From positions 1,101,910 through 1,165,909 of the forward strand of contig JAHPZH010000002.1 in NCBI GenBank assembly GCA_019058315.1: a stretch of DNA of 64,000 nt. The letters are read 5' to 3'. Position 1 is the stretch's first letter. Each line of letters starts with the position of its first letter. This document shows, piece by piece, positions 38,354 to 40,464 of this stretch. Source of the stretch: Candidatus Helarchaeota archaeon. Lineage in GTDB: Archaea; Asgardarchaeota; Lokiarchaeia; Helarchaeales; RDOG01. Under the pieces are notes generated by a model that was not told where the DNA came from, made no database searches, and saw nothing but the letters and a program-made list of their open reading frames with translations. A program made the position numbers and the translations under genes.

Positions 38354-39286
38354 CTATTTTTCTTCAGATTCTTTAGCAAGCATTATGAATCCAATCAGAA
38401 TAGGTACTAGAGAGAGTAAAAAGAGGAAATACCAGACAAAGTAAAAATAGATGACATCGGAAAAGTGCCAAGGTGCCCATCCCATGTAAGTAATTGTCAA
38501 TCCTAAATATCCAAGGAAGATAATTTTTGGTCCTGCATATCCCGATTTTTGACCATAATTGAAAAAGATATAACTGATGGAGAAACAAATTGGAATCCAA
38601 ATAGCAAATAAAAAGCCATACATCATATATTCTATATCTTGAACAACAAATAAACCAAAGCTAAACCAAATAAATCCTAATAAAATTACTACTATAGAAG
38701 GCATTATTCGTAATTTCTTATCCTCAATTAATAATCTAAGAATGCCGTACAAAGATCCAGCTGCCCAAAAAATCATTCCAAATCGTAATAAAAAGAAATT
38801 TCCAGGAGATATATTCTCATTTGCCCAAGTAATTCCCAAACCTCTGAAAATATGTCCTATAAAGGTAATACTATAAATAAAAAAGACAATACCCCAAATA
38901 AGCTGAGAAATATTAGTTCGACCACCTTTATACCAGCGATAAAGCAGATATGTTCCAATTATCCAAATTAAAATAGTAGTATCCAACCCAAGACCGAAAA
39001 ATAGGAGGTTATAGACTTGGGATTTAAAAGGATGATAAAATTTCCAGATTAATATTCCCATTTTGTCTACCCCCATTTCTTCTTGTAATATAATTGCAAT
39101 AAGATCTCTTAGTAAAAAACCATATGTAGGATCTAAATCTCTTGGTGCAAGTGTATAGGTCGCACGTGGTTTAAAAATGAGAACATATATACATAGAATA
39201 GCAATTATAATTATACCAAAAAAATAAGGCAAATTTTTTCTAATCAAATCTTTAATATCTACCAAATTATTAACCCCAATTACCAA
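38354..39286 (-). CDS. Multipass membrane protein (1+7 TM)
   Basis: About 8 hydrophobic helices; TTG start overlaps the stop of the DENN-like gene. Confidence 0.7.
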   Translation of the reverse strand: MVIGVNNLVDIKDLIRKNLPYFFGIIIIAILCIYVLIFKPRATYTLAPRDLDPTYGFLLRDLIAIILQEEMGVDKMGILIWKFYHPFKSQVYNLLFFGLGLDTTILIWIIGTYLLYRWYKGGRTNISQLIWGIVFFIYSITFIGHIFRGLGITWANENISPGNFFLLRFGMIFWAAGSLYGILRLLIEDKKLRIMPSIVVILLGFIWFSFGLFVVQDIEYMMYGFLFAIWIPICFSISYIFFNYGQKSGYAGPKIIFLGYLGLTITYMGWAPWHFSDVIYFYFVWYFLFLLSLVPILIGFIMLAKESEEK

Positions 39287-40365
39287 GTTTCTTTTCCAAA
39301 TCCACTTAGGACCTTATCCAGCTTCTTTCGACATTCAGAAATTGTGTCATTTAATTTAGTCGAAATATCTGGATTGTCTGACATTAGACAAGTTCCGATT
39401 AAATCAAGTTCATCAAGATCTAAATCGGATATTAAATCATCAATATTTGAGGTAGTAACGTTATCTTCTTTGACCATTTTAAGAAGTTTATTTTTTGTAG
39501 CAAGAAACTTCTTAATATCTTGTTTAATTTTTTGTTCTGCTTGCTCCGAATCTAATTGTTTAGCCCGATTAATTAATTTTTTACAAAATTTATTCGATTC
39601 CCCTCCAGTGACTTTACCTTTTTTTAAATCTACTAGAATACTTGTCTTAAAAATTTCTGTTAGGTTAGAAGGTCCTCCAATAATATCCCCAAGCATATAA
39701 TCCTTTGTCCAATATACTATTTCAGGAGGTTTTTCAACATAAAACATAGTTAGTGTATCAATAATTAATTTAACTAAGGTTTTATCACCTGTTACAATAA
39801 CAGGTTCACCTAAAATTAATGCGTTAATGACTTTATCGAGATTTTTTTGAACTAGATTAAAGAGTAAAACTAAACTTCTTTTAACTTCAGCTTTTTCTGT
39901 TTTTTTCATAAAAGAATTTAAAATAAGATTAATTATACTATTATAAAAATCTAAAAGTTCTCCTTCAATTTGTTGTTTTTCTGCCTTTGTTTCTAACAAA
40001 GCATTTAATTTATTTGCAGTTTCATTAAATAGCGTTTCTAACACATCTATATACCGATAAAAAATAACATCATTTGTCTCATTGAATAGTACAGTGATTG
40101 AACTGTCAATTATTCCCCCTCGACGAGTCCGATCTTTAGTTACTATAGATTTAATAAAACCTTTTAAATTGAAGGATGGAAATGGAACTATTGCCAAAGA
40201 TTTGGGAACTATACCTTCTCTATCTGACATTAAATTAATTGATTTGAGGCTGATATAATTTTTAGCTTCAACTGATAAATCTGGCGGAATCCATGCTACC
40301 GCTTTTGGTCCAAATTTTTCATCAAATTGTGAAAATATAATACCTGAAATTAATTGTTCCTTAAT
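39280..40365 (-). CDS. DENN-like protein (uDENN/longin + cDENN + dDENN-like)
   Basis: ISGIIFSQFDEKFGPK longin start lies upstream of the ORF-track ATG; LDKVINALILGEPVIVTGD cDENN-like; ILVDL; proposed ATT start at 40365. Confidence 0.7.
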   Translation of the reverse strand: MKEQLISGIIFSQFDEKFGPKAVAWIPPDLSVEAKNYISLKSINLMSDREGIVPKSLAIVPFPSFNLKGFIKSIVTKDRTRRGGIIDSSITVLFNETNDVIFYRYIDVLETLFNETANKLNALLETKAEKQQIEGELLDFYNSIINLILNSFMKKTEKAEVKRSLVLLFNLVQKNLDKVINALILGEPVIVTGDKTLVKLIIDTLTMFYVEKPPEIVYWTKDYMLGDIIGGPSNLTEIFKTSILVDLKKGKVTGGESNKFCKKLINRAKQLDSEQAEQKIKQDIKKFLATKNKLLKMVKEDNVTTSNIDDLISDLDLDELDLIGTCLMSDNPDISTKLNDTISECRKKLDKVLSGFGKETW

Positions 40366-40464
40366 TCTTACCCACTCTCAATTATATATTCTCTAAATTT
40401 CATAATTTAACTTACTATAATTATTATTTTTTATAATTATCTTTTCAAGGATATGTTTTAAATT

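What the first reader, a model, noticed from the sequence alone, without database searches (positions are those of the whole stretch)
38354..40365. Full DENN-like protein translationally coupled to a 1+7 TM membrane protein
Seen: with its restored N-terminus the 361-aa protein has a longin-type start (IIFSQFDEKFGP), a cDENN-like segment (VINALILGEPVIVTG) and a helical tail. Its stop overlaps the start of an 8-TM protein (TTGGTAA). Known: eukaryotic DENN proteins (e.g. folliculin, NPRL2, C9orf72) are GEF/GAP modules for Rab/Rag GTPases, and longin/DENN domains are Asgard eukaryotic signature proteins. Inference: a membrane sensor plus GTPase-regulator pair, a possible prokaryotic precursor of membrane-localised small-GTPase signalling. 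No GTPase gene is adjacent.
Basis: partly seen in the sequence, partly recalled or inferred. Interest (0 to 1): 0.7.

Follow-up and report, generated by a model that had tools for sequence, protein, structure and literature searches.

The report
Asgard folliculin-like regulator with 7TM partner
An Asgard archaeon encodes a folliculin/SMCR8-like longin-DENN protein (the kind that switches small GTPases off in eukaryotes) in a tight, conserved two-gene unit with a receptor-shaped eight-helix membrane protein, which names a testable membrane partner for an archaeal GTPase regulator.

Summary
Both genes are real. The 45 codons upstream of the annotated ATG are coding: against an 86%-identical relative they show 11 synonymous and 0 non-synonymous changes. 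None of six orthologues has ATG, GTG or TTG ahead of this stretch. All carry a G-rich Shine-Dalgarno-like box 5-6 nt before an aligned ATT/ATC/ATA codon (ACG in one).

The AF2 model (pLDDT 83) is a two-lobed longin plus DENN protein. Best full-length match is folliculin (Z 16.5, 310 residues). The FLCN C-terminal domain (Z 13.2), DENND10, C9orf72 and SMCR8 also match. It carries the GP motif and an invariant arginine aligned to SMCR8 Arg147, so it is a GAP-type longin.

The partner is 1+7 TM with a GPCR-like bundle. It most resembles the 7TM input modules of bacterial kinases and cyclases. It has no Pfam family.

The pair is adjacent (-4 to +66 nt) in all 14 orthologue contigs. In its order, three genomes hold both genes and four hold neither. 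In sister families the same TM gene follows a stand-alone 165-aa GP-motif longin.

Complex prediction gave weak support (0.57 against 0.01 for controls). Asgard DENN proteins and GAP-type longins are published; I found no paper on the 7TM pairing. This scan has noted similar 7TM-longin-GTPase modules on other Asgard DNA.

The parts
39280..40365 (-). Gene A: 361-aa longin-DENN (folliculin/SMCR8-like) protein, from ATT 40365 to stop TAA 39280-39282. Databases annotate it as a 316-aa ORF from ATG 40230.
40371..40379 (-). G-rich Shine-Dalgarno-like box GAGAGTGGG, 5 nt upstream of the ATT. The in-frame stop TGA lies at 40378-40380.
   Evidence: The aligned box (GAGTGG, GAGGGA or GAGGGC) is conserved in 6 of 7 orthologues. 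Its function is inferred.
40363..40365 (-). Proposed non-canonical start codon ATT.
   Evidence: No ATG, GTG or TTG upstream of the conserved strand 1. The aligned position reads ATT/ATC/ATA in 6 of 7 orthologues and ACG in one.
39901..40362 (-). Longin (uDENN) domain, residues about 2-155.
   Evidence: VIA Z 20.1 to the Lokiarchaeota longin 8yqg, 13.7 to the Lst4 longin, 12-12.5 to NPRL2/NPRL3 longins. HMM E 2.9e-7 to 8yqg.
40306..40311 (-). GP motif (Gly19-Pro20) in the loop between strands 1 and 2.
   Evidence: G is conserved in 35 of 37 and P in 33 of 37 members of the wider family. It aligns to the SMCR8 GP motif at 58-76. The motif is described in PMC12290439.
40114..40125 (-). RRGG loop. 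Arg82 is the candidate arginine finger.
   Evidence: R82, G83 and G84 are invariant in 13 orthologues; R is kept in 17 of 37 members of the wider family. It aligns to SMCR8 Arg147 in a segment that is weak on its own.
39601..39888 (-). Core DENN alpha/beta domain, residues about 160-255, including the VINALILGEPVIVTG stretch.
   Evidence: FLCN C-terminal domain 3v42: Z 13.2, 171 residues aligned. DENND10: Z 11.7, model residues 160-336. SMCR8 720-756 aligns by HMM.
39283..39591 (-). Helical dDENN lobe and tail, residues 259-361, ending in F-x-K-x-x-W.
   Evidence: helices. The C-terminal motif is present in all 15 TM-linked long and short partners whose gene junctions were read and in only about 10-13 of 37 members of the wider family.
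38354..39286 (-). Gene B: 1+7 TM membrane protein. It is 310 aa from TTG 39286, or 303 aa from TTG 39265. Stop at 38354-38356.
39263..39265 (-). Alternative, comparatively favoured TTG start of gene B, 14 nt after the stop of gene A.
   Evidence: Homologues start at the aligned M-V/S-D-I/L-K. Junctions are compared.
39173..39232 (-). N-terminal extra TM helix (residues 19-38), conserved across the family.
38360..39031 (-). 7TM core (residues 86-309), oriented N-out, C-in by the positive-inside rule.
   Evidence: helices. (Lys/Arg cluster on the predicted cytoplasmic ends). (fold matches).

Best explanation
Genes A and B form a two-gene operon in a Helarchaeota-like Asgard archaeon.

Gene A encodes a cytosolic two-lobed longin-DENN protein of the folliculin/SMCR8 type. 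It carries the two sequence marks of the eukaryotic longin GAPs: a GP loop and an arginine in the strand 3 to strand 4 loop. Gene B encodes an eight-helix membrane protein. Its last seven helices form a receptor-like bundle with conserved polar residues on the outer face and conserved basic loops on the cytoplasmic face.

Most likely mechanism: protein B holds protein A at the membrane, perhaps through A's conserved C-terminal F-x-K-x-x-W tail and B's cytoplasmic loops. There A accelerates GTP hydrolysis on a small GTPase encoded elsewhere. The best candidates are the genome's eight or more longin-Ras-family fusion proteins, whose longin domains are A's closest paralogues, or an Arf-family protein. 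B may pass on an extracellular or membrane signal.

Translation of A appears to start at a weak ATT codon behind a Shine-Dalgarno-like box.

Shown: gene structure, fold, motifs, conserved linkage, co-occurrence. Inferred: binding, GAP activity, the substrate GTPase, sensing, use of the ATT start.
For: FOLD. AF2 model pLDDT 83.4, pTM 0.78. Foldseek against PDB: C9orf72 E 5e-7, FLCN 1e-6, DENND10 2e-6, DENND1B 1e-5, all full-length alignments. VIA: FLCN 6nzd_H Z 16.5 over 310 residues; FLCN C-terminal domain Z 13.2 over 171 residues at rmsd 3.8; DENND10 Z 11.7; Asgard longin 8yqg Z 20.1.

SEQUENCE. The 37-member family profile hits SMCR8 at E 1.8e-4 in three collinear pieces: the GP motif, the Arg147 region and cDENN. 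Family members hit Pfam Folliculin_C (5.9e-6), C9orf72-like (6.8e-5) and Folliculin (3.1e-5, above its cutoff). The precomputed Pfam label is SMCR8_C. The GP motif and Arg finger are the published marks of Asgard FLCN/SMCR8-type longins (PMC12290439).

LINKAGE. The TM gene lies -4 to +66 nt downstream in the window and in L015, L016, L021, L023, L032, L033, L034 and L035. Five more pairs follow from locus tags or shared contigs. In the order, G000, G123 and G124 have both genes and G125-G128 have neither. Both genes are single-copy in this genome.

SHORT FORM. In 7 of 8 sampled loci of two sister families, the gene just upstream of the TM gene encodes a 164-170 aa protein. Its junction ranges from a 4-nt overlap (ATGGTAA) to about 15 nt. 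By hhalign it matches the longin domain of A (E 1.5e-5, probability 80%), with GP on GP and RG on RRGG. It ends in the same F-x-K/R-x-x-W.

OTHER CONTEXTS. In one further family the TM gene is followed by a longin-Arf-longin fusion.

COMPLEX. Weak support: median ipSAE 0.57, best of three controls 0.01, runs agree in at least 84% of contacts, partner pLDDT at least 75. The tool's mark was reached by 58 of 80 solved complexes and 2 of 110 mismatches, but at 0.60 or under by only 7 solved complexes and by both mismatches.

PARTNER FOLD. The ESM Atlas finds 7TM modules of GGDEF, EAL and histidine-kinase proteins at TM 0.56-0.62, rmsd 2.5-3.9 over 200-220 residues. VIA wide finds GPCR-like folds at Z 12-15.5.

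PARALOGUES. The genome holds eight or more longin plus Ras-family fusions. Their longin is 45% identical to A's.
Against: No GTPase gene is adjacent in any long-form locus, so the substrate is a guess.

This protein itself does not reach any Pfam cutoff (C9orf72-like 14.5 bits against a cutoff of 27).

The Arg147 alignment segment is not significant on its own (i-Evalue 45). The arginine is kept in only 17 of 37 members of the wider family.

Eukaryotic longin GAPs work as heterodimers. No dedicated second longin-DENN subunit is linked here; one unlinked paralogue exists (L028).

The complex score falls in the band that the tool calls more often wrong than right without a strong prior.

For helical bundles, Z of 12-15 can reflect only a common arrangement. 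Foldseek E-values against PDB are 0.02 or worse.

In more distant Asgard families (f16, f19, f31) the TM homologues sit beside unrelated genes, so the family is not bound to longins everywhere.

Similarity of the C-terminal tails of long and short partners is not significant by hhalign (E 0.047).

Confidence: 0.55

Rival explanations
1. Same complex, opposite chemistry. The DENN lobe acts as a nucleotide exchange factor (as in DENND1-Rab35), so the membrane protein recruits an activator rather than a GAP.
For: DENND1B and DENND1A GEF domains are full-length Foldseek hits (E 1e-5 to 7e-5; VIA Z 9.3-9.6). Liu et al. proposed a GEF role for Asgard DENN modules. The arginine is not universal in the wider family.
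Against: The best matches are the GAP-type proteins FLCN, SMCR8/C9orf72 and NPRL2. The GP motif and an arginine invariant among orthologues are marks of the GAP longins. The short-form partners keep the longin and lack the DENN lobe altogether. The conserved function linked to the TM protein therefore sits in the longin.
Confidence: 0.15
2. The membrane protein is the functional centre, as a transporter or membrane enzyme, and the longin-DENN protein is its regulatory or assembly subunit. No small GTPase is involved.
For: No GTPase gene is linked. The TM family has conserved His, Glu, Asn and Trp residues on the outer face. One 7TM hydrolase, ACER3, appears among the fold matches (Z 11.9). An MFS_2 transporter lies just upstream in the window and in L021. 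In eukaryotes, longin-DENN complexes dock on lysosomal transporters (own knowledge: SLC38A9, PQLC2).
Against: Every characterised member of this longin-DENN class acts on a GTPase. The closest paralogues of A's longin are physically fused to Ras- or Arf-family GTPases. The MFS neighbour is not conserved beyond close relatives. Only two conserved histidines are present, too few for the PAQR/ACER metal site (the comparison is from own knowledge).
Confidence: 0.15
3. The two genes are only co-transcribed neighbours and their products do not touch.
For: The complex prediction gives only weak support. Distant TM homologues have unrelated neighbours.
Against: Adjacency is kept at 49-86% protein identity. 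It survives replacement of the long partner by a short longin-only form. Co-presence and co-absence hold across seven genomes of the order. Spacing is -4 to +18 nt at most junctions.
Confidence: 0.12
4. The gene is the annotated 316-aa ORF from Met46, or a decaying gene, and the upstream frame is not translated.
For: There is no canonical start codon upstream. Public annotations-317 aa or 340-344 aa forms in 12 of 23 orthologue clusters.
Against: Eleven synonymous against zero non-synonymous changes in the 42 upstream codons. Starting at Met46 would remove strands 1 and 2 and helix 1 of the longin fold, including the most conserved motif of the family. A conserved SD-like box plus an ATH codon is present.
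Confidence: 0.03

Closest known systems
Eukaryotic longin-DENN GAP subunits: folliculin (FLCN-FNIP, GAP for RagC/D), SMCR8 (C9orf72-SMCR8-WDR41, GAP for Arf/Rab) and NPRL2 (GATOR1)
   Same: Both have a two-lobed longin plus DENN architecture. Both have the GP loop, an arginine in the equivalent longin loop, and the cDENN core strand and helix. Both work at a membrane through a membrane-protein partner; for the eukaryotic complexes that is own knowledge.
   Different: This protein has 361 aa, without the long inserts of the eukaryotic proteins. No paired second longin-DENN subunit is linked. No Rag or Arf gene is linked. The partner is a dedicated 1+7 TM protein encoded in the same operon. Activity is untested.
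Asgard DENN and FLCN-like proteins, and the Roadblock plus Rab-like GTPase plus DENN operon (Liu et al., 10.1101/2020.10.19.343400); Asgard FLCN/SMCR8-type longins with GP motif and Arg finger (PMC12290439)
   Same: This protein belongs to the same protein class in the same phylum. [quoted passage not shown]
   Different: The operon here contains neither a Roadblock gene nor a GTPase gene. It has a 7TM-type membrane protein instead. The pairing also exists with a longin-only form. I found no mention of this in those papers or in PMC10933270.
Asgard longin-GTPase fusion proteins (Tran et al. 2024, PMC10933270)
   Same: The longin domain is of the same subtype, 45% identical over 135 residues. 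Eight or more such fusions are encoded in this genome.
   Different: In gene A the longin is followed by a DENN lobe instead of a GTPase domain.
7TM input modules of bacterial sensor histidine kinases and diguanylate cyclases; the GPCR fold in general
   Same: The seven-helix bundle of gene B superposes at TM 0.56-0.62 and rmsd 2.5-3.9 A. It gives Z 12-15.5 on GPCR-like folds, with N-out, C-in topology.
   Different: There is no detectable sequence relationship. There is no fused output domain. An extra N-terminal helix is present. The presumed output is a separate longin protein.
Actinobacterial conservon (CvnA-D): membrane sensor kinase, Roadblock protein, DUF742 protein and Ras-like GTPase (own knowledge; named in an earlier scan note)
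   Same: Both are prokaryotic operons that tie a membrane protein to a regulator of a small GTPase.
   Different: The components differ: longin-DENN instead of Roadblock, 7TM instead of a sensor kinase, and no GTPase in the operon.

Membership tests
DENN-domain superfamily (FLCN, FNIP, SMCR8, C9orf72, DENND) | N-terminal longin (uDENN) alpha-beta-alpha domain | tested here: met
   VIA Z 20.1 to 8yqg (145 aligned, rmsd 2.2), 13.7 to the Lst4 longin, 12.3-12.5 to NPRL2/3. HMM E 2.9e-7 to 8yqg.
DENN-domain superfamily (FLCN, FNIP, SMCR8, C9orf72, DENND) | Central cDENN alpha/beta domain followed by a helical dDENN | tested here: met
   FLCN C-terminal domain 3v42: Z 13.2, 171 aligned, rmsd 3.8. 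DENND10: Z 11.7, model residues 160-336. SMCR8 720-756 aligns by HMM. Folliculin_C is hit by 3 family members, best 5.9e-6.
DENN-domain superfamily (FLCN, FNIP, SMCR8, C9orf72, DENND) | Passes a curated Pfam model of the superfamily | tested here: not met
   This protein scores 14.5 bits on C9orf72-like against a cutoff of 27. A 29%-identical relative passes PF11704 Folliculin (24.3 against 23.3). Membership at the sequence level therefore holds for the wider family and only through a profile for this protein.
Longin-domain GAPs (FLCN, NPRL2, SMCR8) | GP motif in the loop between strands 1 and 2 | tested here: met
   Gly19-Pro20; conserved in 35 of 37 and 33 of 37 family members. Aligned to the SMCR8 GP motif. 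Motif defined in PMC12290439.
Longin-domain GAPs (FLCN, NPRL2, SMCR8) | Catalytic arginine finger in the longin domain | tested here: inconclusive
   Arg82 is invariant in 13 orthologues and aligns with SMCR8 Arg147. That HMM segment is weak on its own (i-Evalue 45), and the arginine is kept in only 17 of 37 members of the wider family. No residue-level structural superposition was available.
Longin-domain GAPs (FLCN, NPRL2, SMCR8) | Obligate heterodimer with a second longin(-DENN) subunit | tested here: inconclusive
   No second longin-DENN gene is linked. One unlinked paralogue lies at G000:C3:1199044-1199793. It is absent from G124 and from G125-G128 at the thresholds used.
Longin-domain GAPs (FLCN, NPRL2, SMCR8) | Stimulates GTP hydrolysis of a small GTPase | not testable with these tools
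   This needs a biochemical assay.
Asgard Roadblock plus Rab-like GTPase plus DENN operon (Liu et al.) | Adjacent LAMTOR1-like Roadblock gene and Rab-like GTPase gene | tested here: not met
   The window neighbours are MFS_2, a CoA-ligase subunit and an MBL hydrolase. Nine long-form loci show no such genes next to the pair.
GPCR / 7TM receptor fold | Seven-helix up-down bundle, N-out and C-in | tested here: met
   AF2 helices at 86-309. VIA Z 15.5 and 13.9 on designed GPCR-like folds and 12-13.8 on class C GPCR 7TM domains. Lys/Arg cluster on the predicted cytoplasmic helix ends.
GPCR / 7TM receptor fold | Sequence homology to a known 7TM receptor family | tested here: not met
   No Pfam or NCBIfam hit for the protein or for 16 family members. 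Foldseek against PDB gives E 0.02 or worse.
Bacterial 7TM sensor input modules (linked to HK, GGDEF or EAL domains) | Same 7TM fold attached to a cytoplasmic signalling output | tested here: inconclusive
   Atlas fold matches at TM 0.56-0.62. A language-model lead to HisKA_7TM scores only 0.82, with the family on 10% of that cluster's members. No fused long forms were found. One distant homologue directly follows a PAS histidine kinase gene (L009).

The most novel reading that the evidence does not exclude
The 1+7 TM protein is a true receptor. Its state controls a membrane-docked longin GAP and, through it, a small GTPase. That would be an archaeal '7TM receptor to longin/DENN regulator to Ras/Arf-type switch' pathway. 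It would be ancestral or parallel to the docking of FLCN-FNIP and C9orf72-SMCR8 on lysosomal membrane proteins in eukaryotes. A conserved weak ATT start would set the stoichiometry of the regulator.
Probability: 0.2. Interest if true: 0.8.

Novelty: new variant of a known kind. Interest (0 to 1): 0.55.

Why it matters
Asgard archaea encode many small GTPases and many longin, Roadblock and DENN proteins. A published analysis notes that these genes rarely sit together, so matching regulators to partners from the genome layout is hard (PMC10933270).

This locus supplies one firm pairing. A GAP-type longin protein, in long (DENN) and short forms, is tied to one family of receptor-shaped membrane proteins, with a shared C-terminal tail motif as a candidate docking element. 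That gives bench-testable hypotheses on how GTPase regulators are localised to membranes in the closest prokaryotic relatives of eukaryotes.

The conserved non-canonical start also explains why half of the public orthologues are annotated with truncated N-termini. That truncation would hide the GP motif from sequence surveys.

Tried and rejected
Pfam and NCBIfam on both proteins gave nothing above cutoff. Pfam on all 16 TM family members gave nothing.

The search for longer, fused forms of the TM protein (563-2000 aa) found none; the tool itself calls this weak evidence.

hhalign of the short partners against the 13-orthologue profile was not significant (E 0.053, probability 1%). It became supportive only with the 37-member profile.

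Homology of the C-terminal tails of long and short partners was not significant: BLASTP E 0.007 over 22 residues and hhalign E 0.047. I keep the F-x-K-x-x-W motif as an observation only.

Rhodopsin reading rejected: there is no mid-helix lysine in the last helix.

PAQR/ceramidase reading not favoured: only two conserved histidines.

A frameshift or read-through origin of the N-terminus was considered. In a close relative a GTG is in frame (L032), whereas in the window and in L021 the homologous GTG is out of frame. I dropped this in favour of the ATH start, because six orthologues from different assemblies share the SD-like box plus ATH arrangement.

The MFS_2 gene upstream is not part of the unit. 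It is conserved only in the nearest relative.

An earlier scan note proposes an ATT-started spt4 in this window. My one translation at its stated coordinates did not give an open frame, and I did not pursue it.

Complex prediction gave weak support only; the figures are in the For line.
Full report
WHAT IS THERE

On the minus strand, a frame runs open from an in-frame TGA (40378-40380) to a TAA at 39280-39282. A mechanical ORF list shows only the 316-aa ATG ORF 39280-40230. Immediately downstream lies a 310-aa ORF, 38354-39286, starting at TTG. G+C is about 29%, as in the rest of the window. The window is G000:C5:1101910-1165909 of a 5.79-Mb, 12-contig genome. Its nearest public relatives are labelled Helarchaeota, Promethearchaeota or Lokiarchaeota.

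THE N-TERMINUS

Homologues of 360-366 aa cover 100% of the extended protein and carry the same first 45 residues. Against the 86%-identical orthologue (L021), the 42 codons upstream of the annotated ATG show 11 synonymous and 0 non-synonymous differences. The remaining 316 codons show 62 and 45. The stretch is therefore translated and under strong constraint.

The window, L021/L022, L023, L033, L034 and L035 all lack ATG, GTG and TTG between the preceding stop and the conserved first strand. Of 23 orthologue clusters, 12 are annotated in truncated form, at 316-317 or 340-344 aa.

I aligned seven orthologues on the G-I-I-F/Y codons. The codon eight positions upstream reads ATT (window, 40365), ACG, ATT, ATA, ATC, ATA, ATC. 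The box GAGTGG, GAGGGA or GAGGGC lies 5-6 nt before it. In L023 an in-frame TGA lies between the box and the ATT. A longin paralogue elsewhere in this genome (L029) shows the same absence of a canonical start.

WHAT PROTEIN A IS

An AF2 model built from 13 orthologues has pLDDT 83.4 and pTM 0.78. It shows a longin-type alpha-beta-alpha domain (about 2-155), an alpha/beta domain (160-255) and a helical lobe (259-357).

Foldseek against the PDB gives full-length alignments to C9orf72 (5e-7), FLCN (1e-6), DENND10 (2e-6), DENND1B (1e-5), SMCR8 and FNIP2, and domain-level hits to NPRL2/3. The low global TM-scores (about 0.3) with rmsd of 18-26 A reflect a different angle between the two lobes.

VIA-align gives the following:
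- Z 20.1 for the longin domain against a Lokiarchaeota longin (8yqg).
- Z 16.5 against full-length FLCN (310 residues aligned).
- Z 13.2 against the isolated FLCN C-terminal DENN domain (171 residues, rmsd 3.8 A).
- Z 11.7 against the DENN lobe of DENND10.

At the sequence level the protein itself stays below Pfam cutoffs (C9orf72-like, E 0.028). The family of 403 clusters at 50% identity connects further:
- Members hit Folliculin (above its cutoff), Folliculin_C and C9orf72-like.
- The precomputed label is SMCR8_C.

Gly19-Pro20 are kept in 35 and 33 of 37 family members. Arg82-Gly83-Gly84 are invariant among the 13 orthologues. These are the two marks that PMC12290439 describes as shared between eukaryotic longin GAPs and a class of Asgard longins. 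I therefore read A as a GAP-type longin-DENN protein. The arginine assignment rests on a weak alignment segment and remains inconclusive.

WHAT PROTEIN B IS

The AF2 model (16 sequences, pLDDT 82.8, pTM 0.80) has one N-terminal helix (19-38), a poorly modelled lineage-specific insert, and seven long helices (86-309). Lys and Arg cluster at the helix ends predicted to face the cytoplasm, which gives N-in for the protein and N-out, C-in for the seven-helix core.

There is no Pfam or NCBIfam family for it or its relatives. Fold searches give three results:
- Foldseek against the PDB finds only weak GPCR and rhodopsin hits (E 0.02 or worse).
- VIA finds GPCR-like bundles at Z 12-15.5, a range in which helical bundles can match by arrangement alone.
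- The ESM Atlas finds, at TM 0.56-0.62 and rmsd 2.5-3.9 A over 200-220 residues, stand-alone bacterial 7TM proteins and the membrane modules of diguanylate cyclases, GGDEF-EAL proteins and sensor histidine kinases.

Conserved polar residues (His145, Asn156, Glu219, Tyr223, Trp270, Trp273, His274) lie toward the outer face. Conserved Arg117-Trp118, Lys190 and Pro253-Lys254 lie on cytoplasmic turns. 'Receptor-shaped' is shown; 'sensor' is an inference.

LINKAGE

Every long-form orthologue whose DNA I read has the TM gene directly downstream on the same strand: the window, L015 (G123), L016 (G124), L021, L023, L032 (intact there but uncalled, because it has no ATG), L033, L034 and L035. Five further pairs follow from consecutive locus tags or shared contigs.

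Junctions are -4 to +18 nt, and +66 nt to the called start in L035. In the window both the overlapping TTG (39286) and a TTG 14 nt after the stop (39265) are in frame. Comparison favours the second, since in L015 and L016 the overlapping frame is closed and in L023 there is no overlapping start codon, and all three start after GGAGG-like boxes. The sister genus does have ATGGTAA with an open overlapping ATG.

Among 400 species-representative Asgard genomes, the TM family occurs in 44. In the window's order, three genomes have both genes adjacent and four (82-94% complete) have neither. Kin are not independent, so I treat this as supportive and not as a statistic. Both genes are single-copy in this genome.

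THE SHORT FORM

In seven of eight sampled loci of two sister families, the gene just upstream of the TM gene encodes a 164-170 aa protein. Its junctions range from a 4-nt overlap to about 15 nt. A profile comparison aligns its first 104 residues to the longin domain of A (E 1.5e-5, probability 80%), with GP on GP and RG on RRGG. Language-model neighbours include an NPR2-labelled cluster (the family on 19% of members, score 0.89) and LST7/Folliculin (score 0.76).

Long and short partners all end in F-x-K/R-x-x-W, including where no overlapping start could constrain the Trp codon. Only about a third of the wider DENN family ends this way. The conserved unit is therefore 'GAP-type longin protein plus this TM protein', and the DENN lobe is a lineage-specific addition or loss.

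Elsewhere the TM gene sits next to other signalling genes:
- a longin-Arf-longin fusion (L007);
- a Roadblock gene (L008);
- a longin-like gene with a Rab-like GTPase nearby (L006);
- a PAS histidine kinase gene (L009).

In more distant families the neighbours are unrelated.

BINDING

One complex prediction (A1 plus A2 alignments) gave weak support: median ipSAE 0.57 and best control 0.01. The runs agree in at least 84% of contacts, and partner pLDDT is at least 75. By the tool's calibration, scores of 0.60 or under were reached by 7 of 80 solved complexes and by both mismatched pairs that passed. With the strong genomic prior I put binding at about 0.6.

WHICH GTPase

None is adjacent. The genome encodes at least eight proteins of about 350 aa that fuse this same longin subtype (45% identity) to a Ras-family GTPase domain. 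Two are in tandem on C3 and four are clustered on C1. Such fusions are published (PMC10933270). Because longin domains pair with each other in all known complexes of this class, these fusions are the most economical candidates. The L007 context points to Arf-family proteins as an alternative. This step is inference.

WHAT IS KNOWN, AND NOVELTY

The following are published:
- Asgard DENN proteins, FLCN-like longin-DENN architectures and a Roadblock-GTPase-DENN operon (10.1101/2020.10.19.343400).
- Asgard GP-motif and Arg-finger longins (PMC12290439).
- Longin-GTPase fusions (PMC10933270).
- A 2026 preprint that lists GPCR-like Asgard structural clusters without context.

I found no paper that links this longin class to a 7TM partner.

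Earlier unpublished notes of this scan describe analogous 7TM plus longin/DENN plus GTPase operons in Heimdall, Thor and Atabeya genomes and elsewhere in this genome. One of them was later down-weighted for its bold reading. The membrane proteins of the other cluster in this genome are not sequence relatives of B, because B's family is single-copy here.

VERDICT

This is a new variant of a known kind. It is solid as genomics and untested as biochemistry.

Noticed in passing
G000:C11:292532-292996 (L029:1515-2828): Another longin-domain paralogue of this genome (438-aa open frame) has no ATG, GTG or TTG before its conserved GP-motif strand. An ATT follows the stop directly. Non-canonical starts may be more general in this genome or gene family.
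   Followed up: partly
L032:1197-2153: In the GenBank record of the 84%-identical relative (GCA_048940975.1), the TM partner gene is intact but not annotated, apparently because it has only TTG starts. The 1-kb 'gap' after the DENN gene is this gene.
   Followed up: yes
G000:C1:31291-35001 and G000:C3:543170-544693 (L027, L024): Clusters of four and two tandem genes for proteins of about 350 aa that fuse a GP-motif/RGG longin domain to a Ras-family GTPase domain (Pfam Ras 1e-44 to 1e-50). One of them also hits Pfam Folliculin at 7e-5.
   Followed up: partly
G000:C3:1079820-1080221 (L030:1327-2856): A 510-aa protein joins the same longin subtype to a TrmB-type winged-helix DNA-binding domain (Pfam TrmB 4e-13). 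This suggests a longin-controlled transcription regulator.
   Followed up: no
G000:C3:1199044-1199793 (L028:2039-3073): An unlinked 345-aa DENN paralogue has a different N-terminal domain without a GP motif, next to a reverse-transcriptase gene. It is a possible FNIP/C9orf72-like second subunit, but it is not conserved in the relatives examined.
   Followed up: partly
L009:963-2918: In a distant Asgard family the TM homologue directly follows a soluble PAS-HisKA-HATPase histidine kinase gene. This fits the idea that this 7TM family serves as a membrane module for separate signalling proteins.
   Followed up: no
L007:4869-6365: A 499-aa protein has the architecture longin (GP, RGG), Arf-family GTPase, then a second longin-like domain (RGG). 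It is encoded directly after a TM homologue.
   Followed up: partly
window 39031-39170 (protein B residues about 40-85): The window's TM protein and its two closest relatives carry an insert of about 30 residues between the first helix and the 7TM core. It is absent from all other homologues, is predicted to lie outside the cell, and is poorly modelled (pLDDT 55-60).
   Followed up: no
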